Source of the DNA: Candidatus Margulisiibacteriota bacterium
Lineage (GTDB): Bacteria; Margulisbacteria; Marinamargulisbacteria; UBA817
Reading direction: 5' to 3'
Length of the DNA: 60,165 bases
NCBI GenBank assembly: GCA_016779165.1
Contig: JADHOE010000003.1
Location: 1 to 60,165 of the forward strand
The notes beneath the pieces were generated by a model. The model saw only the letters and a program-made list of their open reading frames with translations. It had not been told where the DNA came from and made no database searches. Position 1 is the stretch's first letter. The number at the start of each line of letters is the position of its first letter. This document shows positions 30,035 through 58,084 of the stretch, in pieces. The position numbers were made by a program, and so were the translations under genes.

Positions 30035-30155
30035 TGGACAAGGCTCCTTTTTTTATTGCACATTACTGATGATAATCAATGCCACAGTTAAAAGTAAACC
30101 ATTCGTGTTTACAGGCTCAATGTTCAATTCAAATAAAATAAGTTACAATTCAAAC

Positions 30156-31247
30156 ATGAACAAAAAACGGGTGATTGTTGGCATGAGTGGTGGTGTGGAT
30201 TCATCGGTAACTGCAGCCATACTAAAACAACGTGGCTACGATGTGATTGGCATTACCATGCAATTGCTGCCGTTTGAGGAACAAAAACAATCGGCATGCT
30301 GCAACCTTGGGGCTGTATCAGATGCCCGTCGGGTATGTGAAACATTGGGCATTCCCCACTACGTTATTAATTCTCGGGACACATTTAAACAGCACGTGAT
30401 TGACCCATTTATTAAAAGCTACACGCAAGGCCAAACCCCTAATCCTTGTGTGGAGTGTAACCGGTTTATCAAATTTGATGAACTGATTAAACGGGCAGAC
30501 ATATTGGATGCGCATTATATTGCGACTGGCCATTATTGCAAAATAACCAAATCCAGAAACAGCAACCAATTTTACATTAAAGCAGCAAATGATGAAGGCA
30601 AAGACCAATCCTACTTTTTATACATGATCAACCAAGCAACGCTGCAACGCCTGCTGTTTCCTTTGGGTAGGTACACCAAAGCTGAAATCAGAGAAAAAGC
30701 CGAATCCTTGGGCCTGCTAAATGCCAATCGTCCTGACAGCCAAGAAATTTGCTTTGTTTCACAAAAAAGCTACCGGTCGTTTGTTGAATCTCGATTGTCT
30801 AGCGATCAACTAAAACCTGGTCCAATCATGCATATCGATGGGCGACGTTTGGGACAGCACACGGGCATTCACAACTTTACGATTGGGCAACGCAAAGGAT
30901 TAAATATTTCATTTCCAACCCCCTTGTATGTGCATCGGATTGACGAAAATAGCAACACGGTGTTTGTTGGTGAAAAAGATGCACTAAAACAGCATCAAAT
31001 TTCATTGCATACATTTAGTTCAGTCAGTGGAGAACCCATTAAGAATGAAGTGGTTGACGTTAAACTACGGTACTTAATGAAGCCCATTCGGGCCAAAGTG
31101 AACCAAACGTCCCATGAGTCGGCAATATTAACCCTGCATTCCTCACACTCATTTATTACTCCTGGGCAATCCTGTGTCATTTATAAGGGGGATCGAATTT
31201 TGGGTGGTGGCATAATTGAACCTCAAACCATCTCACTAAATAATTAA
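30156..31247 (+). CDS. mnmA: tRNA-specific 2-thiouridylase
   Basis: VGMSGGVDSS, TPNPCVECN, IATGHY, KDQSYFL, PDSQEIC, FTIGQRKGL and TPGQS motifs; start ATG 30156. Confidence 0.97.
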   Translation: MNKKRVIVGMSGGVDSSVTAAILKQRGYDVIGITMQLLPFEEQKQSACCNLGAVSDARRVCETLGIPHYVINSRDTFKQHVIDPFIKSYTQGQTPNPCVECNRFIKFDELIKRADILDAHYIATGHYCKITKSRNSNQFYIKAANDEGKDQSYFLYMINQATLQRLLFPLGRYTKAEIREKAESLGLLNANRPDSQEICFVSQKSYRSFVESRLSSDQLKPGPIMHIDGRRLGQHTGIHNFTIGQRKGLNISFPTPLYVHRIDENSNTVFVGEKDALKQHQISLHTFSSVSGEPIKNEVVDVKLRYLMKPIRAKVNQTSHESAILTLHSSHSFITPGQSCVIYKGDRILGGGIIEPQTISLNN

Positions 31248-33289
31248 TGGGGTTGGGCTAGCGTCAATATCGCCTCTAGCCAATCGTAAAACTCGTGCAA
31301 GCCGTCCATGTTATTGAATAGGCGATGTTTGTTGGCTTGTATTAACGACTTAAATCGAGGCTTGCTTTTAGAGTCGTTCGCCAATTGAATGGCCAATGCC
31401 ACATAGGCCTCTGGTGAATCGCATATGTAGTTTGTTGCACCTATCCAGCGATAGAACCCCGCCCCAAATGAACCTTTTAACTGGGAGCCATTCAATGTCA
31501 CCAATGGGGTGCCTGCCGCCATGGCTTGCAATACTGTGTTTCCACCACCAAAAGGGAACGGTTCAAGCACCACATCAGCCCCTTTTAACAGGGCATAGTA
31601 ATCGTTGGTTTTGTAGGGCATTTTAAACAATATTTGTGACATTTCTTCCTTGGTTAAAGCTTGGTTTAAGCGATAATTGATAATATTTTCAATGCGATTG
31701 AAGCAGATAAGCACCACCACATTATTTGGGCTTTGCTTTACAATCGATTGAATAACATAATCAAACTCTGGCTGTATTTTAAAAAGGAGCACAGGTAAGG
31801 CAAACACTTTTTTTTGATTGCAGGAAATACCTAGGTCGGCCAATGGTGTTTGAATGGTATCAATGTCTTCTGGGTAATCGTAACATACAGGAAAATTTTT
31901 CAACTGAATGAGGGTTTCCGTGAATTGTGATTGAGCATTTTTGTTGTGAAAATTTTTCCAACTGATGTAATAATCAATGGCGGCACTGCCAGATGTTTCT
32001 GGGTGACCAACCCATATCATTTGCACCGGGGCCAAACGCAACATGGCCAAAAAGTAAATGCAAGGGGACAACCCGACCTCGGGATAAATAATTGCATCCA
32101 CCCCTAACCCATGAATAAATGGGCATAATTCCTCGTGCTTGTTGGATGTTTGATAGTACTCATCCGCACGCTTTTTTATTTGCTTGGTATGGGCATCAAT
32201 GGTTGATGGTTCAACATTTATAATAATGACATGAAAAGACGAAGAAAAATTCACAATGGTTTTAAAATAAAAATCCATGACAGAGTGCTTGTAAAAATAC
32301 TGAGAGATAATGGCCACCCGTGGCTTGTGTTTTCTGGGTTCAGTAGTGGTTGGCTTTAGAGCAGGTGGGGTTAATAACCCACGGCTAAATACTATTGAAA
32401 CTTTTTCTAAAATCTCTTTGTTTTCTTGAGGGTGATACGACAAATAAAATGGTGTGGTTCCAAATGTTTTGTCGGGTCGTTTTGGAACATGGTTATTGGT
32501 GATGGCCGCATTTAAAATATCAAGGACATTGCGTCGCTGATTGTCGCGATCTTCGATGGATGGGTAGGCTGATAGGGTTAAAAATGCCGGGCGCAAGGGC
32601 ACATCTGGGCAATTAGAGGCCGTTAATAATCGGAATGTTTGGTCTAACTTTGCCTGATCCGCTTTTGCAACATAGATGGTTAACAACTGCCAAATGTAGG
32701 GCACGTGCCCCGGCTTATGTTTTAAAAACCCTGTAATTAGCACTTCATTTTTTGAGAGCCGTTGGGTTCGTGAATACAGGTAAACCAACCGATCGCAAAT
32801 CAGCTGATTATTTGGGTAATGCTTGAGCAAGTGCAATAAATCCGCCTCAGATTCAGCCCCCTGATTGTAATACAATCGAACAATGCTGCGGTTAATTTCA
32901 ATGGGGATGGACGATATTTTTTTTTTATCCGCTTGCTTTAGGATATTTTTTGCGCGTTGAAACTGGCCCAGTTTAATGGACAATTCAAGGTTAATTTCAA
33001 CCTGCATAACAGAATCGCACGATTGCTTAATTATCGCCTTGGCTTGGTTGAATTTATTAAGGCGAAGTTTAGTAAGGGCCATATATGTTTGGTAGTCCGG
33101 CAACGCGGCCTGGCCCGATTTGCATCGATTAAACGCATCTTCTGCCACATTAAACGCATCGCAAAACAAATAGGCCACGCCCGCTAGATAATGCACGATT
33201 GGCTCAATGGGCCCATCAGAATTTTCATACACCTCCACCACCCCTTGGTAATCTTGCTCATGAAACCGATGAAATACAATGCGTTTCAT
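31244..33289 (-). CDS. TPR-containing GT41-family protein glycosyltransferase (SPINDLY/OGT/HMW1C-like)
   Basis: Helical TPR-like N-terminal third; catalytic-half motifs FYLSYH, KHSV, YPEVGLSP, MLRLAPVQ, VGHPETSG...IDYY, LFKIQPEFD and EPFPFGGGNT...G.P.VT. Confidence 0.88.
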   Translation of the reverse strand: MKRIVFHRFHEQDYQGVVEVYENSDGPIEPIVHYLAGVAYLFCDAFNVAEDAFNRCKSGQAALPDYQTYMALTKLRLNKFNQAKAIIKQSCDSVMQVEINLELSIKLGQFQRAKNILKQADKKKISSIPIEINRSIVRLYYNQGAESEADLLHLLKHYPNNQLICDRLVYLYSRTQRLSKNEVLITGFLKHKPGHVPYIWQLLTIYVAKADQAKLDQTFRLLTASNCPDVPLRPAFLTLSAYPSIEDRDNQRRNVLDILNAAITNNHVPKRPDKTFGTTPFYLSYHPQENKEILEKVSIVFSRGLLTPPALKPTTTEPRKHKPRVAIISQYFYKHSVMDFYFKTIVNFSSSFHVIIINVEPSTIDAHTKQIKKRADEYYQTSNKHEELCPFIHGLGVDAIIYPEVGLSPCIYFLAMLRLAPVQMIWVGHPETSGSAAIDYYISWKNFHNKNAQSQFTETLIQLKNFPVCYDYPEDIDTIQTPLADLGISCNQKKVFALPVLLFKIQPEFDYVIQSIVKQSPNNVVVLICFNRIENIINYRLNQALTKEEMSQILFKMPYKTNDYYALLKGADVVLEPFPFGGGNTVLQAMAAGTPLVTLNGSQLKGSFGAGFYRWIGATNYICDSPEAYVALAIQLANDSKSKPRFKSLIQANKHRLFNNMDGLHEFYDWLEAILTLAQPH

Positions 33290-33464
33290 TTTTTAACTAT
33301 ACCATAAAGACACCCCAAAATTCCTTAAAAAGCCAGGCCAAATTTACCGATAGTTGATCTGCTTAAAAAAGCACATGATTGTATGTTTAATTTGAGGTAA
33401 AACAGGGAATAACAAAAAGACACCATAGCAATGATTTTTTATTAAACAAAACTTGGGACAATTT

Positions 33465-36400
33465 ATGACTACACGTTTAACCGTATTTTTATTGATGATA
33501 TTATGTTCAACTTGGTTGGCTGCCGCTGTGGCCACCGACCAGACGAGGCAATTGTTGGTGCAAGCCACACTCAATAGCCACTCGTTAACGAAAGGCAACA
33601 TTGAACTGACCATTGGGATTTATAAAGAAACTGATGATAATGAACCTTTATTTTCAGAGCATTTTAAATCCATACCCATTAGCAATGGGCACATTACAGT
33701 TAGCCTTGGGACAAACCCAGAAAACCCAATAGAGTCATCTGTTTTTGAAGATGACAACCTTCGGATTGGGTTTAAAGTTGGCAATAGTGAAGACCTAGAA
33801 TTTATAGAGTTAAGTGCGGTACCCTATGCGTTTCATAGCGAGGTTTCCGATGCCGCGCAACGGTTACAAAATGAAGAATTAATGAAGTTTGACTTTATTA
33901 ACAACCGCATTGGGGTGAACAATACTAGCCCGCAAACCACATTGGATGTTGGAGGCACAGTGAAAGCAACCGCTTTTTCTGGGGATGGCTCACAACTCAC
34001 CAATTTATCGATATCTGATGACAGACTGGTGTGGCTAAAAAACTCTGAAACCCCGACGAATATTTACTACACGAACGGCAATGTAGGAATTAGTACCGAA
34101 ACCCCTGGGGCAACGTTGGATATTTTGGGCAACGCCATTGTTAGCGGAAACCTTACGGTTCGGGGGTTACTCCAAGCAGATCAACTAAAAGGTGATGGGT
34201 CTGGAATTACAAACATTAATGCTTCACAAATTAATGCTGGGGTTATTAATGCCAAGCATGTTGTTGGTGACTACCCAGGTATTACGGGCGTTGGAATATT
34301 AACATCTGGCACATGGAATGCAACTGAAATAGCAGATCAGTACATTGCCAATCAACTGACCCTTAACGACGCCACAATATCGGGTACAAATACCATTTCG
34401 GGAGAATTTAGTTTAACCGGCCATAGCAGCATTAGTGGGGATCACAAATTTAGCATTTCATCAAAGGGGTGGGCAATTACACCCACAGGTGGGCTTACGG
34501 TTCAATCTGTAACCCTAAACACCAACATTTTAATTTCAAATAATGCCATTGAGGTACTTGGTAGTAACGGCCTTGAACTATCGCCACCAGACACCCCAGG
34601 CCTGTATATTTCCCCAACTGGGTCGGTTGGAGTGAATACCATAACGCCAGCCAGCGAGTTTCATGTAAATGGGGGCATCACCCTGGGATTTAGTCCCAAT
34701 GGCCAACCCGGGATGATTCGGTTTAATCCTGAAGATAACACATTTGAAGGCTATCGCAATGACACCAGTGGAAATGGCACATGGATACAACTCGATTACA
34801 ATTCATCCTTTGATTCCCATGCCTTGCATGCCGAAGGGGATGCCATTAAAAATTTAATCTATATTAATTCCGATGGGCATGTAGGCATTGGGGGCATTCC
34901 AGACGACGAGATTACCGACCATTTGGTTGTTAGCGGAAACGTTGTTTTTAAAGGATCGTCCATTATTCACTCAAGCAATGACTTGAATATAAAAGGGGCA
35001 GGCACCCGCATGATGTGGGTCCCCAAAAAAGCAGCGTTCCGTTCGGGTTATGTTGAAGGCACCCAATGGGACTATGACACCATTGGGGAACACAGTGTGG
35101 TATTTGGCAATTCAGGGAATGCCAGCGGTGACAACACAGTAATCGTGGGTGGCATAAATAGCACAAACAGTGGGGATGGCAGTGTTGTTGTCGGCGGAAT
35201 CAACAACCACATTGACAGTTCTTCATACAGCGTAATTGTGGGGGGTGGGTCAGCCATAGCGGGTGAAGAAAACCAAATTTTAAATAGTACCCTTAGCACC
35301 ATCGTTGGTGGAAAAAACAACAAGATTACGAATGCCATTCAGTCCACGATTATTGGTGGAGGAGACAATACAGTTAACGGTAATTATAGCGTTGCCATGG
35401 GAAAAAACATTACCATAAACCACAATAGCTCCTTTGTTTTTTCTGATGGCATAGCACCACGAGAAACCGGCGCAAATAATCAATTTTTAATTTTTGCGTC
35501 TGGTGGGGTAGGTATTGGCCAAGCACCCGAACCTGGCTATGATTTATCGGTTGCTGGGGGCATTAAGGCAATGTTCTTTGAAGGTGATGGCAGTGGCCTA
35601 ACCGATATTTCAGCCAGCAGGTTGGGTGGCTTTGCAGCAGAAACAACGGCATCAAGAAATAGCATTTATATTAGCGATGACAATGGATTTTTGCCAGCTG
35701 ACACAGTATCTGGGCTATCAATTATTGATGGGTCAATTACCGGAAACGATATACAGGCAAATAGCATTACTGGTGACAAAATTGAACGATTTTCAATTAC
35801 TGGTGATAAAATTGAATCTGGAACAATTTCAAGTGATCAAATTGCTGACAATTCCATAACTGCCGATAAAATACAACCTAAGGCTATTTCTGGCGAACAT
35901 ATTCAGGCTGAAAGCATTACAAAGGAAAACATTGCCCCAAACGCCATTCAAACACACCATATTGCCGACGGGCAGGTAACCAACGGCAAGATTGCTCCCG
36001 ACACCATTGATTCTTCTCGAATTGCAGACCAAAGCATAACGTCACAAGACATTGGGTTGAAAGCCATATCGTCCATCAATATTGCCGATGATGCCATTCA
36101 AGCACGCCATATCGCTTATGCAACCGTTGTGTCGGATAATATTGCGGAAGACGCTATTCAAGCTCAGCATATCAATGATTTGGTGGTATCGAGTCGCGTT
36201 ATTCAAGATAACGCCATATTAACCAACCACATTAAAGACAACGCTATTCTACAACGTCACATTGCAGATAACGCCATTCAAGGCATTCATATTGCCGACG
36301 CCGTTATTATTAATGAACGAATAAAGGATAACAGCATTGAATCAAATAAAATTGCCCCCAATGCCATTTTAGGGATTCATTTACCAGATAATGTCATTAT

Positions 36401-38420
36401 TTCACGGCACATTGCGGACCGGACAATATTAGAGCAGCATATTTCTGATGTTGCCATCGGGGAAGATAAAATTGACGATAATGCCATTGTATCAAGAAAC
36501 ATTCAAAATGGTGCCGTAACCAGCGATAAACTTGCCCCAAATTCGGTTGAAAGCATCCACATTTTGGATGGCACCATCACAAGCAAAGATATCCAAGAAA
36601 TGGGATTTTTGCCGAACGAAATGATTGCAGAAGGTGCCATTGCATCCATTAATATTGCCGATAATGCCATTGGGGGAAATCATATTAAGGATGGGCAAAT
36701 TGAATCCCTCCATATTCTAGACTTCTCTATTGTAAGCCGCGACATAAAAGATGAAACCATCGATGCCACACGTGTTTTGGCTAATGGAACAATAACCGCA
36801 GAGCTTATTGCTGAAAATGCCATTCAAGAGCACCATTTGGCTGACAATTCAGTAACATCAAGAAATTTAGCTGATGCATCAATTCCTTGGGAAAAAATAA
36901 CCATGGATCCCATTCCCGAAGCATCAATTGCAGACTTATCAATTCCAGGATCAAAAATAAAAGATGGCAGTATTCCAGGTTCAAAAATCGAACCCAATTC
37001 AATCACATCCGACAAACTTGCTGACAACTCCATTTCAACAAATGCATTAATTGGTACGCTGAGCGTTGAAAAAGGCGGTACTGGGCTTACGCAAAATCAA
37101 ATTGACTTGCTTAAAGGAAGTGTTCTTTACGCCAGCGGTGAGCCCGCTCGAATGGCCGGCAACAAAAACCATATCTCTTGGGACGAAGTCAACATGCGCA
37201 TGGGCATTAATACAGCAGCACCTGAAGCGGCATTGCATGTGGACGGCAGTTTACTCACCACCCAGGGGGTATTTTTTGGTAACATGGAAAACTCCATTAG
37301 CTTTGGGGTTGATGGTGATGGTGAAAGCTTTATTATTATTGGGCCTGAAAGCCCCGCCCAATTGAATACTGACGGTGAATCAGAAGAGTCTGGCAATGTA
37401 GAGCCCCTGGGGACCTTAAAAACCAGTCAGCTGTATGTTAAAGAAAAGGTTGGCATTGGCATTTCCGACCCTGTAAATGCATTGGATGTAAAGGGCACCA
37501 TGGCCATTGGGCAAACCTTTGCAGGTGTTCAAGCACCCGCCAATGGCTTAATTGTTGAGGGTAATGTTGGGATTGGCACCACCACCCCAGCACATGCATT
37601 GGATGTAAATGGTGCCATTCAAGCCAAAAGCATTATTGGAAAAAGCGAATCAGATTCAACCCCAGGCATTGGCATCCAGGGCATTGGCGGTGAGATCGGC
37701 ATCAAATCAGTTGGATCAAAGGTGGGCATTGAAGTAGACGCCAAAGAGCAAGGGATTGTGGTAACCTCTGAGGGAAGTGAGGGTGTGGGCGTCCTCATAA
37801 AAAATGCGAGCAACAGCTCAGCAATTGGTGTTCAGGCCATCATTAAAAACAGCTCTGGGCAGAACCTAGTTACGGGAGAACTAGCAAAAAGAACATCTGA
37901 TTATTCGGCTGGGGTTTATGGTTGGGCACGATCACAGGTAGGGGCCAATCACTGGGCAGGGTACTTCGATGGACCAGTTCACATATCTGGCAATTTGGGA
38001 TTGGGGGAATTTTTAACTGGAGATTTGCCTGATGCACCCTTGCATGTAAAGGGAACGTCACTCTTTGAATCAACGGTTCATGTCATGAATGAAGGGACAT
38101 CCGATGACTTAGGCACATCCATTGATTGGTCAAGCGGGTCAGTTCAAACCCACACCTGCAATGACGACAGTACAATTTCGTTTATAGATTCTGAATTAAC
38201 CCAAGGTGGTGTTTATATTTTAACCTTAATTTTAAATGCGCAAAGTGGATGTAGCATAGGCAATACCACATTTAGCGGAATAAAGTGGGCCCAAGGTCAA
38301 ACAACCGTACGGCATGTGGAAAATGGCGATACCATTATCTACTCGTTCTTTCTAGATAAAACCACAAACACACCCGTTTACTATGGCATTGATGTGGGGT
38401 ATTCAAGTGGCGGAGGATAA
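33465..38420 (+). CDS. Giant exported fibre-like protein 1 (phage-tail-fibre-like motifs)
   Basis: Signal peptide (MTTRLTVFLLMILCSTWLAAA); repeated (V/I)GI.T..P...L.V.G motifs; FxGDGSxLTxx motifs; 45 decamer repeats; LSVEKGGTG; C-terminal IDWSSG...IKW...YYG domain. TTG at 33453 is an alternative start. Confidence 0.85.
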   Translation: MTTRLTVFLLMILCSTWLAAAVATDQTRQLLVQATLNSHSLTKGNIELTIGIYKETDDNEPLFSEHFKSIPISNGHITVSLGTNPENPIESSVFEDDNLRIGFKVGNSEDLEFIELSAVPYAFHSEVSDAAQRLQNEELMKFDFINNRIGVNNTSPQTTLDVGGTVKATAFSGDGSQLTNLSISDDRLVWLKNSETPTNIYYTNGNVGISTETPGATLDILGNAIVSGNLTVRGLLQADQLKGDGSGITNINASQINAGVINAKHVVGDYPGITGVGILTSGTWNATEIADQYIANQLTLNDATISGTNTISGEFSLTGHSSISGDHKFSISSKGWAITPTGGLTVQSVTLNTNILISNNAIEVLGSNGLELSPPDTPGLYISPTGSVGVNTITPASEFHVNGGITLGFSPNGQPGMIRFNPEDNTFEGYRNDTSGNGTWIQLDYNSSFDSHALHAEGDAIKNLIYINSDGHVGIGGIPDDEITDHLVVSGNVVFKGSSIIHSSNDLNIKGAGTRMMWVPKKAAFRSGYVEGTQWDYDTIGEHSVVFGNSGNASGDNTVIVGGINSTNSGDGSVVVGGINNHIDSSSYSVIVGGGSAIAGEENQILNSTLSTIVGGKNNKITNAIQSTIIGGGDNTVNGNYSVAMGKNITINHNSSFVFSDGIAPRETGANNQFLIFASGGVGIGQAPEPGYDLSVAGGIKAMFFEGDGSGLTDISASRLGGFAAETTASRNSIYISDDNGFLPADTVSGLSIIDGSITGNDIQANSITGDKIERFSITGDKIESGTISSDQIADNSITADKIQPKAISGEHIQAESITKENIAPNAIQTHHIADGQVTNGKIAPDTIDSSRIADQSITSQDIGLKAISSINIADDAIQARHIAYATVVSDNIAEDAIQAQHINDLVVSSRVIQDNAILTNHIKDNAILQRHIADNAIQGIHIADAVIINERIKDNSIESNKIAPNAILGIHLPDNVIISRHIADRTILEQHISDVAIGEDKIDDNAIVSRNIQNGAVTSDKLAPNSVESIHILDGTITSKDIQEMGFLPNEMIAEGAIASINIADNAIGGNHIKDGQIESLHILDFSIVSRDIKDETIDATRVLANGTITAELIAENAIQEHHLADNSVTSRNLADASIPWEKITMDPIPEASIADLSIPGSKIKDGSIPGSKIEPNSITSDKLADNSISTNALIGTLSVEKGGTGLTQNQIDLLKGSVLYASGEPARMAGNKNHISWDEVNMRMGINTAAPEAALHVDGSLLTTQGVFFGNMENSISFGVDGDGESFIIIGPESPAQLNTDGESEESGNVEPLGTLKTSQLYVKEKVGIGISDPVNALDVKGTMAIGQTFAGVQAPANGLIVEGNVGIGTTTPAHALDVNGAIQAKSIIGKSESDSTPGIGIQGIGGEIGIKSVGSKVGIEVDAKEQGIVVTSEGSEGVGVLIKNASNSSAIGVQAIIKNSSGQNLVTGELAKRTSDYSAGVYGWARSQVGANHWAGYFDGPVHISGNLGLGEFLTGDLPDAPLHVKGTSLFESTVHVMNEGTSDDLGTSIDWSSGSVQTHTCNDDSTISFIDSELTQGGVYILTLILNAQSGCSIGNTTFSGIKWAQGQTTVRHVENGDTIIYSFFLDKTTNTPVYYGIDVGYSSGGG
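35703..37058 (+). repeat. 45 consecutive ~10-aa repeats (consensus xIxxxxIxDx) in fibre protein 1
   Basis: Counted by hand from TVSGLSIIDG to SISTNALIGT: 452 aa with only two 1-aa register slips. The repeat is at the protein level; the DNA is diverged. Confidence 0.92.
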
Positions 38421-38432
38421 CTGGGGGGCGCT

Positions 38433-41400
38433 ATGAATCGCATTCAATGGGTTGGCATATGGTTGTTTTTATTTATTTCTTCATCATTTGCTTTGGCCAA
38501 AATGCCCGCAACCTTTGGCATCGATGTATTTGTATCAAAAACAGCTGAGGATGGCCGTCGGTACCCATTAAATGGGGGCTATCATATTACCTTAGAGTTA
38601 ATTCAAAATGACTCAGCGCAATTTACAAAGTCATTCACAACATTCATAACGGAAGGAATTTTAACGATTGAAATTAACAATGAGGATGGGCTTGACACCT
38701 CACTATTCAGAGTCGCACCCACTAAATTGCGACTAAGCATCTCTGCCCATCAAACTCAATATTCATCAATAACTAATACGGGCATTTCATCATTTTCAGA
38801 GGGCACTGAAGTATTTGAGCTGCCACTTTATTATGTGACCCATGCCAAGCGAAGTGTGTCAACAAACCGAGCAAAAACATTTAATTCTTTACGTAATTTA
38901 AACTTAATACAGTTGGACCCAACCCATTTGACGGTTGCAATAGGAACAACCAATGCCGAATCAAAAATGCTTAACGACGATGAATCCGTAAAACTGCGCA
39001 TGTTGATTGATGGCACAGTACTAGCCAATGCATTTATTGGAGACGGCAGTCAACTGCTCAATTTAGATGTGATTCGTTGGAAAAGAATTTTAAATCCTGA
39101 ACGCATTCACTACACCAAAGGGTTTGTTGGTATTGGCATTGAGTCGCCAACAGAAAACCTGCATGTCAGCGGCAATATGCGCCTATCAGAAGATGAAAAT
39201 ATAGCCTTTACTGACCTTGCAGGCGATGCAGACGACCCATTGCTGACCATTCGGGACACGCTGCAAACAACCTTTAAGGGTGAGGCCCCGCTTATCTCTT
39301 CATTAAATGCATCAAATATTGCCATTGGAGCGTTACCCGAAGGAAGGCTTGACTTAGATTACCATCACATCACTGGCCTTGGGGAAATTTCCAGTGCCAA
39401 ATGGAATTCGACCAGTCAAATACAAGACCCTTATATCGCCAATAATTTAACCATTAATGAAACCTCAACTTTCACAAATGGGTCTTTAAGTGGCCGTATT
39501 GAATTGAACGGCAACTTCCATGTGGGATCAAATGCCTATGACATGGCCATAAAATCAAGCCATTGGGACTTGAATAATGCCAGCCAATTTAATGCAATTC
39601 ATGTTGGCGACATTCACATGGAAGACCAACACATTCGTTACGCAGACACCTTGCAGATTAACAACAAAAAACAGCCTGTTTTAAGCATCCACAATAACGG
39701 GGCACTGAGTCAAAAAAACAGCGAAATCACATCCATGTTTAATCCAGAAAACTCCATTCAGATAGGAAACTCCACCAATGACGCCTTGGGCACATTGCGA
39801 TTGAGTAATTATTTTGAAGGTTACACATCAAGCGGCTGGACGCGGCTTGACCAAAGCGGCACATTTACTGGTTACTCGTTGTTTCCAAAAGACAACTTCA
39901 GCGCCCCAGTCATTGAAATTGTTAAGCAAGACAATACGGCCAATATTGGGGTCAATGAATCCCGCCCAAGGGATCACCTTACGGTATCGGGAAATGTGAT
40001 TTTTATGGGCAATACAATGGCTGAAGAATTATCACAACTTTCGGGTGGAAGCTATTGGTTATGGGCCGCAAATACTGGGTCGCTTCGAATTGGGCAATCA
40101 AATCTACCAGAAGTCAATGACAGCATGTTTAATCCAGATCGAATGGGAAATTACTCTGTGGCCATTGGTAAAAATGCAATTGCCCAAGGCGATGGGTCCA
40201 TTAATGTATCCTTTTCAACCGATGAATTGGGGCCAACCAGTGTTAAAGGAAGCTACGGTATTGCTCTTGGCGCCCAAGGGCTTGAATTCAGCAATGCGCA
40301 TGGCATTGTTGTTGCATCACAACGTTTAACAACCATTCACCCCAATGCGTTATCGTCCATTATCTTTAGTTCAGATGAAATAACAGATACCACTGACTTC
40401 ACTGGTGAATCATCCATTGTATTAAACGGAAACAACCCAACGACACAATTTAACAACACCATCATGGGCGGACAAAACCTTGCTGCCCCATTGGGTAATA
40501 ACAGCTTTTTTTGGGGCAGCAATCGGCGCTCGCAAGGCATTCAATCAGAGTCATCTGAACCCATCGATGGCACATTTCAACTATCAATGTTTGTAAAAAT
40601 GGGAATTAACACAACCTTTAATCAGAATGAGCCGTCCGACTTGGTGGTGGGTGATAAAATTATTGCCTCCAATTTTGTTGGCAACGGCAGTCGATTAACT
40701 GGTGACCTTCAAACCAACCATTTAACGGTTAAGATTGGCGAAGAAATCAAGCGAATAGAAACTGCCAGCAAAAAGGAGCCGCAATCCATTTACGTATCGA
40801 ATAACTCTAAGGCATTACCAAAGGACACTGTTTCGAATCAATCAATCAAAGATGGGAGCTTGGTTGCATTAGACTTTAGAGAAGGAAGCATAGGAAAAAA
40901 TGCATTCCAGGCTGGGTCCATTCAAGGGGACCGACTTGAACAAAACGCACTAACTGGCGATTCACTGGAAGGGCAATCACTACAGTCCCGACTGTTCTCA
41001 GGAATTACTGGGACAAATTTTGAAGATGATGCCATTACCAGTGTTGCACTTGCAGAACCCAGCATATACACAAATCACATCACCAACTCTGCCGTTACTG
41101 GCAACCATATTCTAGAAAATCAAGTGAATGCGCCAATCAATAATATTGCACGTCATGCCATAACCGCTGATGATATTTTTGTCGAAGAACTGACGAGTTC
41201 ACCATTTGATTACTTCAATAATGGCGCGGCTACAGGTGAAACCATTGCGCATGGGGCACTATCAACCACATTATTCGATGATGGCGCCATTGAATCGTCG
41301 TATTTTGTGTATGAAACCACAGCTACCCCACCCCAGCCCAACCCACAAATTCAAGAGCATCACCTAAATGCAGCTGCCGTTCGATCCAACCATATTCAAG

Positions 41401-43796
41401 AGGATGCCCTTGAATCTCGGCACTTTTCAGACCAAAGCATTCACACCAACGACCTTACCCGAAATGCCGTAGAGTCATTCCCATTTAGCGAAGATGACCC
41501 CAAAATTATTGCAACCAACCGAACCATTGCAGAGGGACCATTGTTTAGCAGCCGGCATTTGTCAGATAACGCCCTTACCACAGATAAATTTCATGACAAT
41601 TGCAGTAGCTGTGAGTCGCAAACTGAACGGTTTCAGTTGCAGGGCGATCAAATTGCCGACAATGCCATAGCATTTGACGATGATGATTTAGACGGGACTG
41701 AAGGCGATGAATTGGCCGACAAAAGCATTGAATTACGGCACATTACACCAAATGCCATTATTGGACGACACTTAAAAACCGATACTATTAAAACCAGGCA
41801 TTTTTTAAACGATACGATTGTTAGTAGAAATTTAGAGGAGCAATCCGTTTCATCGAGCAATATTGTCGATGGAACACTAACAATATCCAGCAATGATTCA
41901 CTTGGAGACTTTGCACTAAAGTCATTTTATGGCCGTCATTTGGTTCCAAAGCTAATTAACGCTACCCATGTATCAGACAATGCGGTGTTGAGCAAAAACA
42001 TCGCCAATAACAGTATTACATCCAATCATATCGTTGATTTTTCGCTGGAAATGGATGATTTTCAGCCCGGTGCATTTACCACAGAAAAATTTAAAACCAG
42101 CACCGTGACATCAGAAAATCTAGCGGAATCTATTTTTGAAGAAAAGCATTTTGGAGAATTTGACATTCCTTACACTAAAATTCTCGATCACTCTGTATCG
42201 TGGGACAACTTTATTCCACCACCAGATGGCGAATTTCCAGTGGACCGATTCTCTGATAACTCCCTGGCCTTTTATACACCTGATGGTGTCGGGCAAGCCT
42301 TTGAAAATGACATTCTTTTGGATGCTAGCGAAATGATAACCAAAAACAGTATTCCATACGATGCATTCACCTTTAACACCGATGACTCAGGGTACCCATT
42401 ATCAAAACTAATGACCCCACTTTCAGTGGACCATGGCGGCACTGGTATTTCATCTTTTTTAAAGGATGCTATTGTTTTTTCAAATGATCACCCCACCAAT
42501 TCAAAGCTCAGTCAGGACCCGTTATTCAAATATAACGATGGCATTTTTTTTATTGGGCAACCCAGAATTCCAAGGGGCTTTAAGGGTCTATTGACCACTG
42601 GAAATGTGCTCATTTCAAATGGCGCCCTCATCCTTAAAAAATATTCTGATAACGAATTTACCTTTGCCACATACAATACAGCGGATAATGCCATCCAATT
42701 TACCCACCGAAACCCCTTGGATTCAAATGAGTATAATATGATGCTAAAAACCAACAGACTTTATTCAAAAGACGCATTGGTATTGGGGGATGCTGGCCAG
42801 GCCAATATGATCGATTTGCCATCTGGATTCACATTTGGAACGACTTACCGCAATTCTGCTCCTCCAGAAAACGGCATGATTGTTGAGGGGTCCATTCAAA
42901 TTGGCGGCGAACGAGATCAAGATTTCTCATTATTACCTGAAGGGGTGCTATTGAAAGCAGATAATGGGACCATACACGCAACGTCAAGCAACATCGGAAT
43001 TTTGGTTACAGAATCAACGCCACCCCACCCCAGTCCAATTCTAAGTGAAGGAAGAAGCATTAAGGCCAAAGGAGACACCGGCATCAATATTATCAGCTCG
43101 GATTCAAATTCAATTCCGATCAAGGTTGAGCTGGATGCCGATGGCATAGACGAGGTTGTGATCGGCATATCATCCTCATTGGAGCTTCCTATCTTGCCAA
43201 CGCTAAACGCATCAGCCATTCAGGTCACGCTAAATGCTCAACAAACCCACGTACACACCGGTAGCATTGGCAAAGTCAACACCGAGGCGCCTGTGTTTTA
43301 TGCCGGCATTTACGGTTCAAGGTCTGGTGAAACATCAACGGATTATGCTGGTGTATTTGACTCGTTATCAACCCAAAAACCACCAACCTTTATGGGAAGC
43401 CTAACCAACAAAATCATGCAACAGTCCAGCCATTTGCACATCACATCATTTAAAGCAGAAGGGCCAATTGTGTATCAGCCTCAAACAAATATCATATCTT
43501 CCATCGATTGGAGAAAAGGAAACATTGCTGTGGTGGATGTTGATAACAACGATCGAACCATTACATTTCAAACACCTCCAGATAGATCAGCCAAATTACT
43601 AATACATGTAACTCACAGCGGGGTCGGCAAACTCAGTTTTCAAACCGCGGGAATAGAAACCATTCGTTGGAAAGATGATTATGAACCAGAACTCACCGCA
43701 ACCGAGGGAAGTGTGGATTTTGTATCATTGTTTTACGACCACCAAACCAATACCTACTATGGATCGGCTGCCTATAACTTTATCGACCAAAATTAG
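38433..43796 (+). CDS. Giant exported fibre-like protein 2, paralog of protein 1
   Basis: Signal peptide; same domain order; FIGDGSQLLNL; ITGLGEISSAKWN...YIANNLT; interrupted decamer shaft; LSVDHGGTG; C-terminal IDWRKG...IRW...YYG domain. Starts 12 nt after the protein 1 stop, with a GGGGG SD-like run. Confidence 0.85.
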   Translation: MNRIQWVGIWLFLFISSSFALAKMPATFGIDVFVSKTAEDGRRYPLNGGYHITLELIQNDSAQFTKSFTTFITEGILTIEINNEDGLDTSLFRVAPTKLRLSISAHQTQYSSITNTGISSFSEGTEVFELPLYYVTHAKRSVSTNRAKTFNSLRNLNLIQLDPTHLTVAIGTTNAESKMLNDDESVKLRMLIDGTVLANAFIGDGSQLLNLDVIRWKRILNPERIHYTKGFVGIGIESPTENLHVSGNMRLSEDENIAFTDLAGDADDPLLTIRDTLQTTFKGEAPLISSLNASNIAIGALPEGRLDLDYHHITGLGEISSAKWNSTSQIQDPYIANNLTINETSTFTNGSLSGRIELNGNFHVGSNAYDMAIKSSHWDLNNASQFNAIHVGDIHMEDQHIRYADTLQINNKKQPVLSIHNNGALSQKNSEITSMFNPENSIQIGNSTNDALGTLRLSNYFEGYTSSGWTRLDQSGTFTGYSLFPKDNFSAPVIEIVKQDNTANIGVNESRPRDHLTVSGNVIFMGNTMAEELSQLSGGSYWLWAANTGSLRIGQSNLPEVNDSMFNPDRMGNYSVAIGKNAIAQGDGSINVSFSTDELGPTSVKGSYGIALGAQGLEFSNAHGIVVASQRLTTIHPNALSSIIFSSDEITDTTDFTGESSIVLNGNNPTTQFNNTIMGGQNLAAPLGNNSFFWGSNRRSQGIQSESSEPIDGTFQLSMFVKMGINTTFNQNEPSDLVVGDKIIASNFVGNGSRLTGDLQTNHLTVKIGEEIKRIETASKKEPQSIYVSNNSKALPKDTVSNQSIKDGSLVALDFREGSIGKNAFQAGSIQGDRLEQNALTGDSLEGQSLQSRLFSGITGTNFEDDAITSVALAEPSIYTNHITNSAVTGNHILENQVNAPINNIARHAITADDIFVEELTSSPFDYFNNGAATGETIAHGALSTTLFDDGAIESSYFVYETTATPPQPNPQIQEHHLNAAAVRSNHIQEDALESRHFSDQSIHTNDLTRNAVESFPFSEDDPKIIATNRTIAEGPLFSSRHLSDNALTTDKFHDNCSSCESQTERFQLQGDQIADNAIAFDDDDLDGTEGDELADKSIELRHITPNAIIGRHLKTDTIKTRHFLNDTIVSRNLEEQSVSSSNIVDGTLTISSNDSLGDFALKSFYGRHLVPKLINATHVSDNAVLSKNIANNSITSNHIVDFSLEMDDFQPGAFTTEKFKTSTVTSENLAESIFEEKHFGEFDIPYTKILDHSVSWDNFIPPPDGEFPVDRFSDNSLAFYTPDGVGQAFENDILLDASEMITKNSIPYDAFTFNTDDSGYPLSKLMTPLSVDHGGTGISSFLKDAIVFSNDHPTNSKLSQDPLFKYNDGIFFIGQPRIPRGFKGLLTTGNVLISNGALILKKYSDNEFTFATYNTADNAIQFTHRNPLDSNEYNMMLKTNRLYSKDALVLGDAGQANMIDLPSGFTFGTTYRNSAPPENGMIVEGSIQIGGERDQDFSLLPEGVLLKADNGTIHATSSNIGILVTESTPPHPSPILSEGRSIKAKGDTGINIISSDSNSIPIKVELDADGIDEVVIGISSSLELPILPTLNASAIQVTLNAQQTHVHTGSIGKVNTEAPVFYAGIYGSRSGETSTDYAGVFDSLSTQKPPTFMGSLTNKIMQQSSHLHITSFKAEGPIVYQPQTNIISSIDWRKGNIAVVDVDNNDRTITFQTPPDRSAKLLIHVTHSGVGKLSFQTAGIETIRWKDDYEPELTATEGSVDFVSLFYDHQTNTYYGSAAYNFIDQN
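40827..42420 (+). repeat. Degenerate, insertion-interrupted decamer repeat region in fibre protein 2
   Basis: TVSNQSIKDG / AITSVALAEP / AVRSNHIQED / AIIGRHLKTD / SITSNHIVDF type units separated by acidic inserts. Confidence 0.8.
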
Positions 43797-57142: not shown

Positions 57143-58084
57143 ATGCAAATAAAAAATAATGACAGAATGTTAGGTTGGGCAATTGGGTTAATGGCATTGT
57201 TGCTCGTTGCGCCACGCGTGGAGGCGGCATCTTACCTAATGCTTACCGATTTAGGGTCGTCCGCTGAAATGATTCGTCGAGGAAACATTGAGGGGTTTAG
57301 CAAAGGGTCAAATGCCATATTTGAAAACCCTGCAGGCTTGCACCATGTGAATGTCATATCAACATCTGTATTTGCATCAGAAATCATGAAAGAAGTCAGT
57401 TACAGAAACGTTTCTGTGGCCATTGATTCCAGCATTGGGGCATTTGGAATTGGCTACATGGATGCAGGGGTAGACGACATTCCAAACACACGAAAAAATG
57501 GCAACATTATTGAAGCCATTGGTGTATTTTCTTACAAAAACAGAATTGTAAAAGTAGGCTACCAAGCCTCTATTACTGAACAGCTTCACCTGGGGTTGAG
57601 TGCCGTCGGATACATGAATGAAATTCACACCTACACAGGCAGTGGATACAATCTGGATGCTGGCTTACTGTATTCATTTTCAGAATTAAATGTATCGTTA
57701 TTTGCTCGAAATTTAATCCCAACCACCATTCAATACAAAGATACAGAAGACCCTACATATACCGGTGAGGAGGAGTTGCCGCTGCAAGTCATTTTGGGAG
57801 CATCTTACCCTTTTGGTGACATTGATTTAATGGGGCAATTTAAGTTTGATGGGATCAACACATTAATGTCTGCTGGCATGGATTACACCCCCGGGTTTTT
57901 ATTTAACATGCTTACCATATCGGGTGGCTACAAAGAGTTTTCCGTCATGGACACCTTGGCAAGCACCGTTACTATGGGTGTTGGGCTTAACTTATTTGGC
58001 TTATCCCTCGATTATGCGTATGAAAAAAGTGATCACTTCGAGTATGACGCAAACACATTTGCATCCGTTGGGTTCGATTTTTAG
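57143..58084 (+). CDS. Outer-membrane beta-barrel, PorV/PorQ-like (FadL-related)
   Basis: Signal peptide; GSSAEMIRRGN and AIFENPAGL plug motifs; alternating strands; C-terminal ...VGFDF with terminal Phe. Confidence 0.7.
   Translation: MQIKNNDRMLGWAIGLMALLLVAPRVEAASYLMLTDLGSSAEMIRRGNIEGFSKGSNAIFENPAGLHHVNVISTSVFASEIMKEVSYRNVSVAIDSSIGAFGIGYMDAGVDDIPNTRKNGNIIEAIGVFSYKNRIVKVGYQASITEQLHLGLSAVGYMNEIHTYTGSGYNLDAGLLYSFSELNVSLFARNLIPTTIQYKDTEDPTYTGEEELPLQVILGASYPFGDIDLMGQFKFDGINTLMSAGMDYTPGFLFNMLTISGGYKEFSVMDTLASTVTMGVGLNLFGLSLDYAYEKSDHFEYDANTFASVGFDF

What the first reader, a model, noticed from the sequence alone, without database searches (positions are those of the whole stretch)
31244..43796. 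Candidate new system: GT41 protein glycosyltransferase paired with two giant exported phage-fibre-like proteins
Seen: a 681-aa TPR+GT41 gene and two tandem genes of 1655 and 1787 aa share a ~175-nt divergent promoter. The block sits between housekeeping mnmA and purB, with no integrase, capsid, terminase or baseplate genes. Both giants have Sec-type signal peptides and tail-fibre-like motifs (VGIxTxxP..L.V.G, FxGDGSxL, LSVxxGGTG). Established: in Haemophilus the GT41 enzyme HMW1C is encoded beside, and glycosylates, the HMW1 adhesin; SPINDLY-type bacterial GT41s mostly have unknown substrates. Inference: a domesticated tail-fibre scaffold is used as a cell-surface filament and glycosylated in the cytoplasm by a dedicated GT41 before export. 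N-x-S/T sequons are present (e.g. NTS, NLS, NAT, NGT, NYS, NIT), but I cannot show they are enriched.
Basis: partly seen in the sequence, partly recalled or inferred. Interest (0 to 1): 0.85.

Follow-up and report, generated by a model that had tools for sequence, protein, structure and literature searches.

The report
Sugar transferase beside two surface-fibre genes
An uncultured marine bacterium (Marinamargulisbacteria) encodes two giant exported fibre proteins, built like the adhesive fibres of the predator Bdellovibrio, next to an OGT-type protein sugar transferase that may decorate them before export, but that link is only partly conserved and untested.

Summary
A 681-aa TPR+GT41 gene (31244-33289, -) lies back-to-back with two tandem giant genes (33465-38420 and 38433-43796, +), between mnmA and purB, with no phage genes nearby.

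The giants are not a new kind. They are two of 13 paralogs in this genome. All have a signal peptide followed by a shared ~105-aa N-terminal domain, which is found in more than 14,000 protein clusters elsewhere. Their best solved-structure matches include the Bdellovibrio MAT fibres (Bd2133, Bd3182) and the UspA1 head. Only the central shaft resembles phage tail proteins.

The GT41 is OGT/SPINDLY-like, so O-linked, and not an HMW1C-type N-glycosyltransferase. N-x-S/T sequons are not enriched (z = -0.4 and +0.4).

Fibre-GT41 adjacency is kept in three of the four families of the order and is absent from at least five loci or lineages. GT41-mnmA adjacency is kept at least as well. Most fibre-bearing relatives have no GT41.

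A precedent exists: cyanobacterial Ogt glycosylates the pilin PilA and often lies beside pilin genes. This genome also has pilins.

Verdict: these are MAT-like surface fibres (about 0.8). The GT41 glycosylating them is plausible (about 0.4). This is a new variant of a known kind, of moderate interest.

The parts
31244..33289 (-). TPR + GT41 protein glycosyltransferase of the OGT/SPINDLY type, 681 aa, with no signal peptide. TPR-like half ~1-270; GT-B catalytic half ~310-660.
   Evidence: Pfam PF13844, E 5.8e-17, 61.6 bits against a cut-off of 25. The family profile matches SPINDLY at 1.5e-41 over positions 22-643, human OGT at 6e-41, TtOGT at 1.6e-32 and NGT/HMW1C at 1e-26. K504, the equivalent of OGT K842, is invariant, as is the FPFGGGNT motif. 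It is single-copy in all 9 genomes of the order.
33290..33464 (.). Divergent intergenic region shared by the GT41 gene and giant A (175 nt to the ATG at 33465; 163 nt to the TTG at 33453).
   Evidence: Sequence read. The consensus promoter scan finds nothing above the shuffled expectation (27 sites against 31.9 +/- 5.1), so the promoters are inferred only.
33465..38420 (+). Giant fibre A (1651 aa from the ATG). In order: signal peptide; ~105-aa N-terminal beta domain (~30-140); beta-helix segments with capping-loop motifs (150-460); TAA-head-like beta-roll (~480-690); ~45 decamer repeats forming the shaft (~740-1200); a GGTG motif (1208); further capping-loop segments (1250-1400); a variable C-terminal region ending in a ~92-aa beta domain (~1555-1650).
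   Evidence: Profile against the PDB: UspA1 head 2.6e-11 (548-647), DotG and pentapeptide-repeat proteins 9e-6 (943-1130), MYRF 5e-5 (188-242). Segment 366-451: Bd2133 at 2e-4 and Bd3182 at 4.6e-3.
38433..43796 (+). Giant fibre B (1787 aa), a co-linear but diverged paralog of A (25-32% identity in blocks). It has the same signal peptide, N-terminal domain, shaft, GGTG motif and ~92-aa C-terminal domain.
   Evidence: Searches show block-wise similarity to A. The N-terminal domain matches profile A4 at 2.1e-20. The C-terminal domain is 25% identical to that of A, E 3e-5.
30069..31247 (+). mnmA (tRNA 2-thiouridylase). It converges on the GT41 gene with a 4-nt overlap. It is listed because its adjacency to the GT41 is conserved at least as well as the fibre-GT41 adjacency.
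   Evidence: Pfam PF03054, PF20259 and PF20258. mnmA sits beside the GT41 in G001-G003, G006, G007, G008, L102-L109, L122 and L133.

Best explanation
The two giants are Sec-exported surface fibres, probably trimeric, of the mosaic adhesive trimer (MAT)-like kind. A conserved N-terminal domain holds them at the cell surface. A long beta-helical, repeat-built shaft projects a fast-evolving C-terminal tip, which binds a partner surface such as a host, prey or particle. They are 2 of 13 such genes in this reduced Marinamargulisbacteria genome.

The neighbouring gene is the order's single-copy cytoplasmic OGT/SPINDLY-type TPR-GT41. Its most likely role is to add simple sugars to Ser/Thr of exported surface-filament proteins before Sec translocation. 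The adjacent fibres A and B are the leading candidate substrates, reached through the TPR domain and possibly co-regulated from the shared 175-nt divergent region.

Shown here: gene anatomy, family memberships, the extent of synteny, and the lack of sequon enrichment.

Inferred: surface display, trimerisation, adhesion, and every step of glycosylation.

My odds: MAT-like surface fibres about 0.8; GT41 acting on A/B about 0.4. The stated confidence is for the whole statement.
For: Fibres:
- Signal peptides are present.
- A shared N-terminal domain directly follows the signal peptide in 13 genes of this genome and in 32 of 41 class genomes. It occurs in 14,349 clusters at large, almost always starting near residue 25-30.
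- The best PDB hits for segment 366-451 are the Bdellovibrio MAT fibres Bd2133 and Bd3182, aligned on the capping-loop motif (PMC10769870).
- There is a UspA1-head-like roll, E 2.6e-11.
- The shaft matches phage tail proteins.
- The termini are the least conserved parts, 21-35% against 50-65% for the shaft.
- Fimbriae-like structures link the Marinamargulisbacteria symbiont R. eludens to its host vacuole membrane (PMC6784892).

GT41:
- The GT41 fold is intact, with the invariant catalytic Lys.
- The divergent fibre-GT41 arrangement is found in G000-G004, G007, G008, L102, L103, L105 and L109. In G007 the surrounding 26 kb shares no other window gene.
- Precedents for a cytoplasmic GT41 beside its exported filament substrate are Ogt-PilA (PMC9306852) and HMW1C-HMW1 (PMC3012730).
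- Unchecked earlier scan notes report OGT-type GT41 genes beside phage-fibre-like proteins in CPR genomes.
Against: - Adjacency is not universal. The P0016 contig runs mnmA straight into fibre A. L097 has an unrelated 526-aa ORF in the GT41's place. The G005/L099/L100 type has other ORFs upstream, and G005's single GT41 lies beside ilvD at a contig end.
- G006 and L108 keep GT41-mnmA with no fibre.
- mnmA-GT41 adjacency has no evident functional meaning, yet it is conserved at least as well. Conserved adjacency in this clade is therefore weak evidence of coupling.
- The other four fibre clusters of this genome (contigs C13, C31, C5, C11) have no glycosyltransferase beside them. Of the 32 fibre-bearing class genomes, 24 lack the GT41.
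- No outgroup GT41 locus has a fibre neighbour.
- Sequons are not enriched.
- Both AlphaFold models were of low confidence (pLDDT 44 and 47), so neither the trimer nor the fold is shown.
Confidence: 0.4

Rival explanations
1. The GT41 is the Marinamargulisbacteria counterpart of cyanobacterial Ogt and acts on type IV pilins or on other cytoplasmic or exported proteins. Its position beside the fibres is inherited gene order with no enzyme-substrate relation. The fibres are unmodified MAT-like adhesins.
For: - Cyanobacterial Ogt glycosylates PilA (PMC9306852).
- This genome has PilB (C14:15825-16973), PilT (contig C9) and two prepilin genes on contig C14.
- The GT41 is a single-copy core gene of all 9 genomes of the order. 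That includes G006, where no fibre-family gene was found.
- GT41-mnmA adjacency is as conserved as GT41-fibre adjacency.
- Fibres persist without an adjacent GT41 in at least 3 lineages and without any GT41 in most of the class.
- Cyanobacteriota and Sericytochromatia GT41s branch near the base of the clade opposite the Marinamargulisbacteria clade in the midpoint-rooted tree.
Against: - No pilin gene lies near the GT41 here (genome-wide motif scan), nor in the relatives' loci. Among all loci scanned, only L095, a Pirellulaceae locus, had one.
- The fibre-GT41 divergent pair survives in G007, where the rest of the neighbourhood is scrambled.
- G006 is only 65% complete, so its lack of fibres is weak evidence.
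Confidence: 0.35
2. The GT41 is an HMW1C-like N-glycosyltransferase that puts hexoses on Asn in N-x-S/T sequons of the fibres before export.
For: - GT41 NGTs do glycosylate large adhesins in the cytoplasm (PMC3012730, PMC10507012).
- P0001 hits NGT structures at 5.6e-17 to 2.3e-15.
- A and B carry 20 and 27 sequons.
Against: - The NGT equivalog model NF049992 scores 67.8 bits against a cut-off of 1000.
- The N-terminal half is TPR, aligned end to end with SPINDLY and OGT, not the all-alpha domain of NGTs.
- Sequon counts equal the composition expectation (z = -0.42 and +0.37). Their raised density (1.2-1.5 per 100 aa against 0.69 for the proteome) follows from the N/S/T-rich composition and is shared by fibre paralogs elsewhere in the genome.
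- No two-partner-secretion transporter is among the flanking genes scanned.
Confidence: 0.07
3. The block is a decayed prophage, gene transfer agent or contractile-injection-system remnant, and the giants are leftover tail fibres without a cellular role.
For: There are PHROG tail-fibre hits and tblastn hits to phage tail proteins. Another fibre-cluster gene, on contig C5, has a phage tail Collar domain.
Against: - There is no integrase, capsid, terminase, sheath, tube or baseplate domain in the flanks, and GC content is uniform.
- The same mnmA-GT41-A-B-purB order recurs across species of the genus. All genes are intact there, and the proteins are 39-56% identical to the window's.
- Signal peptides and a cellular N-terminal domain are present in all 13 paralogs.
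- Phage similarity covers only the shaft, at most 36% of the protein, and the tip has no phage match.
Confidence: 0.02

Closest known systems
Bdellovibrio bacteriovorus MAT (mosaic adhesive trimer) fibres, non-S74 subgroup (Caulton et al. 2024, PMC10769870)
   Same: - A signal peptide is followed directly by a conserved beta-rich N-terminal domain, ~105 aa here against ~130 aa in MATs.
- Both have a long beta-helical fibre carrying the capping-loop motif (VG[IV][GN]TxxPxxxLHV here).
- Both have variable C-terminal tips.
- Both form large paralog families (13 here, 21 in HD100) and are chromosomal, not prophage.
- Both resemble phage fibres and MYRF.
- Bd2133 and Bd3182 are the best PDB hits for A residues 366-451.
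   Different: - These proteins are larger (1650-1790 aa against ~600-1100).
- They carry a TAA-head-like roll and a ~45-unit decamer shaft.
- The organism is a small-genome Marinamargulisbacteria, not a predator.
- No glycosylation or adjacent GT41 is reported for MATs ('glycos' occurs 0 times in the paper).
- I could not test whether the N-terminal domains are homologous, because no Bdellovibrio full-length sequence was within reach. Two Bdellovibrionota MAGs gave no hit.
Cyanobacterial Ogt/OgtA (TPR-GT41) with the pilin PilA (Synechococcus elongatus Synpcc7942_0051; Nostoc punctiforme OgtA; PMC9306852)
   Same: - Both are cytoplasmic TPR+GT41 enzymes with the conserved catalytic Lys.
- Both are encoded beside genes for an exported surface-filament protein.
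- The sister-phylum relationship fits. Cyanobacteriota and Sericytochromatia homologs are among the closest outgroups (30-32% identity).
   Different: - The neighbour here is a pair of 1650-1790-aa fibre proteins, not a ~14-kDa pilin.
- The pilin genes of this genome lie on another contig.
- No biochemical data exist for this enzyme.
- Orthology to Synpcc7942_0051 itself was not tested.
HMW1C-HMW1 of Haemophilus influenzae and the related NGTs (ApNGT, AaNGT, EtpC-EtpA)
   Same: A GT41-fold cytoplasmic enzyme is encoded beside a very large exported adhesin, which it modifies before Sec export.
   Different: - NGTs have an all-alpha N-domain, not TPR, and make N-linked hexose at N-x-S/T.
- Their substrates are two-partner-secretion or autotransporter adhesins.
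- Here the NGT model scores far below its cut-off, sequons are not enriched, and no TpsB-like transporter is adjacent.
Trimeric autotransporter adhesins (YadA, UspA1)
   Same: Residues ~548-647 match the UspA1 head beta-roll (E 2.6e-11). YadA_head matches weakly in 2 orthologs. Both have an overall fibre-with-head logic.
   Different: There is no C-terminal YadA-type membrane anchor (no Pfam hit). The protein is anchored, if at all, through an N-terminal domain, so the polarity is opposite.
Phage tail fibres and host-specificity proteins (phrog_892; 'WIAG tail domain', minor tail proteins)
   Same: The decamer-repeat shaft (~735-1278) is 25-36% identical to phage tail proteins of cyanophages, pelagiphage, Marinitoga, Arthrobacter and other phages.
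   Different: Only the shaft matches, at most 36% coverage. The N-terminal domain, the head-like roll and the tip are not found in phage records. The genes have signal peptides and sit among housekeeping genes.

Membership tests
CAZy GT41 / Pfam Glyco_transf_41 | Significant match to the GT41 catalytic (GT-B) domain above the curated threshold | tested here: met
   PF13844 at 61.6 bits against a cut-off of 25, E 5.8e-17. The genome search gives the same result.
CAZy GT41 / Pfam Glyco_transf_41 | Conserved UDP-phosphate-binding Lys (human OGT K842; S. elongatus Ogt K445) | tested here: met
   F503-K504 is invariant in 8 Marinamargulisbacteria homologs and aligns with the 'KI.P' motif of SPY and OGT. 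The His equivalent to OGT H498 is H in genus g1 and in G006, but Q or N in G007, G008 and G005.
OGT/SPINDLY-type GT41 (TPR + catalytic domain) | N-terminal TPR superhelix fused to the GT41 domain | tested here: met
   Profile A1 aligns over positions 22-643 with SPINDLY (1.5e-41) and hits consensus TPR proteins at 4e-34 over positions 13-224.
OGT/SPINDLY-type GT41 (TPR + catalytic domain) | O-linked transfer of GlcNAc or Fuc to Ser/Thr of protein substrates | not testable with these tools
   Needs enzyme assays and glycopeptide mass spectrometry.
HMW1C-like N-glycosyltransferase (NGT) | Match to the NGT equivalog model above its cut-off | tested here: not met
   NF049992 at 67.8 bits against a cut-off of 1000.
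HMW1C-like N-glycosyltransferase (NGT) | All-alpha N-terminal domain (no TPR), with a substrate rich in used N-x-S/T sequons | tested here: not met
   The N-terminal half is TPR. Sequon counts equal the shuffle expectation, z = -0.42 and +0.37.
Cyanobacterial Ogt-PilA pairing | The ogt gene lies next to a type IV pilin gene | tested here: not met
   A prepilin motif scan of the whole genome finds only two genes, both on contig C14. None was found in the related loci except L095, a Pirellulaceae locus.
MAT (mosaic adhesive trimer) fibre superfamily | Signal peptide followed directly by a conserved beta-rich N-terminal domain of ~130 aa | tested here: inconclusive
   A signal peptide plus a ~105-aa domain is shared by 13 paralogs and 14,349 clusters. 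Homology of this domain to the Bdellovibrio one could not be tested: it has no PDB structure, and two Bdellovibrionota MAGs gave no hit.
MAT (mosaic adhesive trimer) fibre superfamily | Beta-helical fibre with the capping-loop motif (V-G-G/N-pi-x-x-P-x-x-x-L) and similarity to solved MAT fragments | tested here: met
   The motif occurs six times in A and twice in B. Bd2133 (8OND, 2e-4) and Bd3182 (8OJN, 4.6e-3) are the top PDB hits, aligned on that motif. The MYRF hit at 5e-5 parallels the paper's own motif search. The scores are modest.
MAT (mosaic adhesive trimer) fibre superfamily | Intertwined homotrimer | not testable with these tools
   Only monomer AlphaFold2 was available, and both models were of low confidence (pLDDT 43.8 and 47.3). 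That is usual for obligate trimers but proves nothing.
MAT (mosaic adhesive trimer) fibre superfamily | Variable C-terminal tip on a conserved scaffold; many paralogs per genome | tested here: met
   The last ~200 residues are 28-35% conserved among orthologs against 50-65% for the shaft. The A and B tips share only a ~92-aa domain at 25% identity. There are 13 paralogs in G000.
Trimeric autotransporter adhesin | C-terminal YadA-type beta-barrel anchor | tested here: not met
   Pfam finds no family in A or B at E <= 0.01. Only the head-like roll matches (UspA1).
Prophage / GTA / eCIS locus | Neighbouring capsid, terminase, sheath, tube, baseplate or integrase genes | tested here: not met
   Pfam scan of the nine flanking ORFs returned housekeeping domains for eight and none for the 462-aa ORF at 47284-48672. 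The same order recurs in related species.
Pentapeptide-repeat (Rfr) beta-helix | Tandem A(D/N)LXX repeats folding as a right-handed quadrilateral beta-helix | tested here: inconclusive
   The profile hits DotG and designed pentapeptide-repeat proteins at 9e-6 to 1e-4 over positions 943-1134. There is no Pfam pentapeptide hit. AlphaFold2 gave only a low-confidence strand-turn ladder.

The most novel reading that the evidence does not exclude
In Marinamargulisbacteria, an OGT/SPINDLY-type TPR-GT41 has been recruited to O-glycosylate a dedicated pair of MAT-like, phage-fibre-derived surface fibres in the cytoplasm before Sec export. That would make these fibres the first large natural substrates of a bacterial OGT-type enzyme outside pilins. 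Taken with the unchecked notes of GT41 genes beside fibre-like proteins in CPR genomes, it would be one instance of a recurrent, cross-phylum 'glycosylated domesticated fibre' module used by small-genome, partner-dependent bacteria for attachment.
Probability: 0.3. Interest if true: 0.65.

Novelty: new variant of a known kind. Interest (0 to 1): 0.45.

Why it matters
Natural substrates of bacterial OGT-type GT41 enzymes are known for very few cases; pilins in cyanobacteria are one. A conserved enzyme-fibre gene pair names concrete, testable candidate substrates.

The fibre family is also a lead for biology. It takes up about 4% of a reduced genome in a phylum with no cultured member, and one relative lives inside placozoan cells and shows fimbriae-like links to the host membrane. 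The family is therefore a good candidate for how Marinamargulisbacteria attach to partners.

If the glycosylation link is wrong, what remains is an ordinary, if large, expansion of a known fibre superfamily.

Tried and rejected
1. AlphaFold2 of A residues 1225-1655 (8-row alignment) gave mean pLDDT 43.8; only the last ~100 residues reached 65-75. AlphaFold2 of the shaft, residues 735-1225 (6 rows), gave pLDDT 47.3. Both were too poor for a fold search, so none was run.
2. Single-sequence PDB search with P0002 found nothing. Only profiles and a short segment gave hits.
3. Sequon enrichment was tested and rejected.
4. Flagellin as an alternative GT41 substrate, as with FlmG-type enzymes: no Flagellin_N was found in this 71%-complete assembly.
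5. Outgroup GT41 loci (45 from genome contigs, 24 from metagenomes) have no A/B-like neighbour. Some hold other giant ORFs, which I did not follow up.
6. The 526-aa ORF upstream of fibre A in L097 is not a degraded GT41. The 560-aa ORF beside G005's GT41 begins like dihydroxy-acid dehydratase (ilvD), by my reading of its N-terminus, and has no BLAST similarity to the similar-sized ORFs upstream of the fibre loci.
7. The extra ~900-aa ORF between mnmA and the GT41 in G001 and G003 has no Pfam domain.
8. The N-terminal domain profile found nothing in two Bdellovibrionota MAGs. This is uninformative.
9. A metagenome scan with the single protein found nothing. The alignment scan worked.
11. The promoter and terminator consensus scan gave nothing above the shuffles.

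Full report
**What is there**

- The GT41 gene is at 31244-33289 on the minus strand (681 aa, P0001).
- Giant A is at 33453-38420 on the plus strand. It is 1655 aa from a TTG start. The ATG at 33465 gives the 1651-aa form held in the public collection (P0004).
- Giant B is at 38433-43796 on the plus strand (1787 aa).

The divergent gap is 175 nt to the ATG. The flanks are housekeeping genes: mdh, HupE, ArsC-like, OsmC, rhodanese and mnmA on one side; purB and an NhaC-type antiporter on the other. GC content is flat across the window. No phage, integrase or contractile-system domain is present.

**The organism**

The window is contig C27 of a 1.15-Mb, 37-contig assembly that is 71% complete. 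Names attached to the closest related contigs identify the group as Candidatus Marinamargulisbacteria (Margulisiibacteriota). This is an uncultured, small-genome sister lineage of the Cyanobacteria (PMC6349859). One member, R. eludens, lives inside Trichoplax cells and shows fimbriae-like connections to the host vacuole membrane (PMC6784892).

**The enzyme**

P0001 passes the Pfam GT41 threshold (61.6 bits against 25). A profile of eight Marinamargulisbacteria homologs (A1) aligns over nearly its whole length, TPR half and catalytic half together, with these structures:
- Arabidopsis SPINDLY, 1.5e-41
- human OGT, about 6e-41
- Thermobaculum OGT, 1.6e-32
- HMW1C-type N-glycosyltransferases, 1e-26

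NCBI's NGT equivalog model scores 67.8 bits against a cut-off of 1000. The Lys equivalent to OGT K842 (K504) and the FPFGGGNT motif are invariant. The His equivalent to OGT H498 varies: H, Q or N.

So this is an OGT/SPINDLY-type enzyme, presumably O-linking, and not an HMW1C-type one. It has no signal peptide. It is present once in each of the 9 genomes of the order held in the collection, and it is absent from the other 32 class genomes searched, apart from two distant GT41s. In a tree, the Marinamargulisbacteria sequences form one clade (support 100/98), and Sericytochromatia and Cyanobacteriota sequences branch near the base on the other side.

**The giants**

Neither giant has a Pfam or NCBIfam family. 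Their anatomy is nevertheless readable.

- Signal peptide. Both begin with a Sec-type signal peptide. This was read from the sequence.
- N-terminal domain. A ~105-aa beta-rich domain follows the signal peptide. This domain is shared by 13 genes of this genome, in five clusters on contigs C13, C31, C5, C11 and C27. Together these genes make up about 16,200 codons, roughly 4% of the assembled bases. A profile of the domain finds 14,349 clusters among 1.84 billion representatives, almost always starting at residue ~25-30. The named hits are Margulisiibacteriota hypotheticals and a 'tail fiber domain-containing protein' of Ignavibacteriota.
- Capping-loop segments. Next come beta-helix segments carrying V-G-[IV]-[GN]-T-x-x-P-x-x-x-L-H-V motifs, six in A and two in B. 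For A residues 366-451, the two best matches in the whole PDB are the Bdellovibrio MAT fibres Bd2133 (8OND, 2e-4) and Bd3182 (8OJN, 4.6e-3), aligned on exactly this motif. It is the capping-loop motif that defines those fibres (PMC10769870).
- Head-like roll. Residues ~548-647 match the UspA1 head beta-roll (2.6e-11).
- Shaft. Residues ~740-1200 are about 45 decamer repeats with Ile at a 5-residue period. They match phage tail-fibre PHROGs (phrog_892, 2.3e-47) and phage tail proteins by tblastn, at 25-36% identity and never more than 36% of the protein. More weakly, they match DotG and designed pentapeptide-repeat proteins.
- Tip. After a GGTG motif and more capping-loop segments, the protein ends in a ~92-aa domain shared by A and B (25% identity, E 3e-5). 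This domain has no phage match.

Among orthologs the two ends are the least conserved parts, 21-35% against 50-65% for the shaft. That pattern is expected of a receptor-binding tip on a conserved stalk.

A and B are co-linear paralogs. Monomer AlphaFold2 models of the C-terminal 431 residues and of the shaft were of low confidence (pLDDT 43.8 and 47.3). This is common for obligate trimers but shows nothing, and I ran no fold search on them.

**Comparison with what is known: the fibres**

The architecture matches what Caulton et al. described for the 21 MAT fibres of Bdellovibrio: a signal peptide, a conserved N-terminal domain, a mosaic beta-helical fibre with capping loops, a variable tip, many paralogs and a chromosomal location. 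Those fibres are displayed on the cell surface and bind prey surface glycans. Those authors already noted relatives in other bacteria.

The fibres are therefore new, unusually long members of a known kind, not a new system. They are not trimeric autotransporters, because there is no C-terminal anchor. They are not a prophage remnant either.

**The link between enzyme and fibres**

For the link:
- The divergent fibre-GT41 arrangement recurs in the genus (G001-G004), in two further families (G007, G008) and in four metagenome contigs (L102, L103, L105, L109).
- In G007 the GT41 is only 37% identical over its aligned C-terminal part, and the surrounding 26 kb shares no other gene with this window.
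- There are two precedents for a cytoplasmic GT41 encoded beside the exported filament it modifies. One is HMW1C-HMW1. The other, closer, is cyanobacterial Ogt: a TPR-GT41 that is needed for PilA glycosylation and lies beside pilin genes in 38% of 201 genomes (PMC9306852).

Against the link:
- Three fibre loci have lost the neighbour. In the P0016 contig, mnmA runs straight into fibre A. L097 has an unrelated 526-aa ORF in that place. The G005/L099/L100 type has other ORFs upstream, and G005's only GT41 sits beside ilvD at a contig end.
- Two GT41 loci keep mnmA but have no fibre (G006, L108). G006 shows no fibre-family gene at all, though it is only 65% complete.
- mnmA-GT41 adjacency, which has no obvious functional meaning, is conserved at least as well as fibre-GT41 adjacency. 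Conserved neighbourhood in this clade is therefore weak evidence of coupling.
- The other four fibre clusters of this genome have no glycosyltransferase.
- 24 of 32 fibre-bearing class genomes lack the GT41.
- No outgroup GT41 locus has a fibre neighbour.
- N-x-S/T sequons are exactly as frequent as composition predicts. For an O-linking enzyme, though, the test is beside the point.
- The genome also has a type IV pilus system with two prepilin genes on contig C14. These are obvious rival substrates, given the cyanobacterial precedent.

**Verdict**

These are exported, fibre-like, partly phage-like proteins next to a protein glycosyltransferase. But the fibres belong to a known superfamily, and the enzyme is OGT-like rather than HMW1C-like. 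The enzyme-substrate link is plausible and unproven, at about 0.4. The main rival, at about 0.35, is that the GT41 serves pilins or other proteins and the adjacency is historical.

Earlier notes of this scan report OGT-type GT41 genes beside phage-fibre-like proteins in several CPR genomes. They are unchecked. If they are true, they make a recurrent association more likely. I raised my odds only slightly for them.

I rate this as a new variant of a known kind, of moderate interest. Its value is that it names concrete candidate substrates for a bacterial OGT-type enzyme, and a candidate attachment apparatus for an uncultured phylum.

Noticed in passing
window 57143-58084 (+): A 313-aa ORF matches the type IX secretion outer-membrane protein family PorP/SprF (PF11751, E 1.4e-7, 31.8 bits against a cut-off of 22.3). 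That is unexpected outside the Bacteroidota-related groups. A related ORF lies near the fibre locus in G007 (L039, 26% identity).
   Followed up: partly
own genome: G000 C13:4503-27448, C31:4497-14640, C5:16849-27662, C11:18707-21529: Four further clusters of tandem signal-peptide fibre genes share the N-terminal domain of A and B; the family has 13 genes in all, about 4% of the assembly. The contig C13 cluster also holds a 753-aa protein with two SLH domains, and a 1104-aa protein whose C-terminus weakly resembles a FlgD-Ig / T9SS-type sorting domain (E 0.0045).
   Followed up: partly
own genome: G000 C5:17721-20465 (+): A 914-aa protein inside a fibre cluster has a phage tail Collar domain (PF07484, E 8.8e-6), followed by a long, strikingly His-rich C-terminal region (repeated H-x-H and HKH motifs). 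It has no signal peptide.
   Followed up: no
own genome: G000 C2:184-13398 (+): A 4404-aa ORF, the largest in the assembly, has no evident signal peptide at its N-terminus. It is depleted in N-x-S/T sequons (14 observed against 29 expected, z = -3.1).
   Followed up: no
own genome: G000 C14:6411 (+), C14:15798 (-), C14:15825-16973 (-), C9:18201-18977 (+): Type IV pilus or T2SS genes: two prepilin-like ORFs with a G-[FY]-S-[LI]-L-E motif, a PilB-type ATPase and a PilT-type ATPase. These are possible alternative substrates of the GT41 and a possible outer-membrane route.
   Followed up: partly
L034:4900-7632 (G001) and L044:6162-8849 (G003): In two species of the genus, a ~900-aa ORF with no Pfam domain is inserted between mnmA and the GT41 gene. 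It is absent from this window and from G002.
   Followed up: partly
L061, L065, L068, L086, L092 (Sericytochromatia / Blackallbacteria): The closest outgroup loci mostly carry two different GT41 genes (~815 aa and ~650 aa) within about 8 kb, next to ORFs of 1130-1490 aa that have no BLAST similarity to A or B.
   Followed up: no
L111 (metagenome contig Ga0164243_10007623): A distant GT41 (25% identity) lies beside a 2643-aa ORF on the opposite strand. This is another GT41-giant pairing, in an unidentified organism.
   Followed up: no
window 33453-33467: The start of giant A is ambiguous. The TTG at 33453 gives 1655 aa. The ATG at 33465, which opens MTTRL and the signal peptide, gives the 1651-aa form on record. 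No clear Shine-Dalgarno sequence precedes either.
   Followed up: partly
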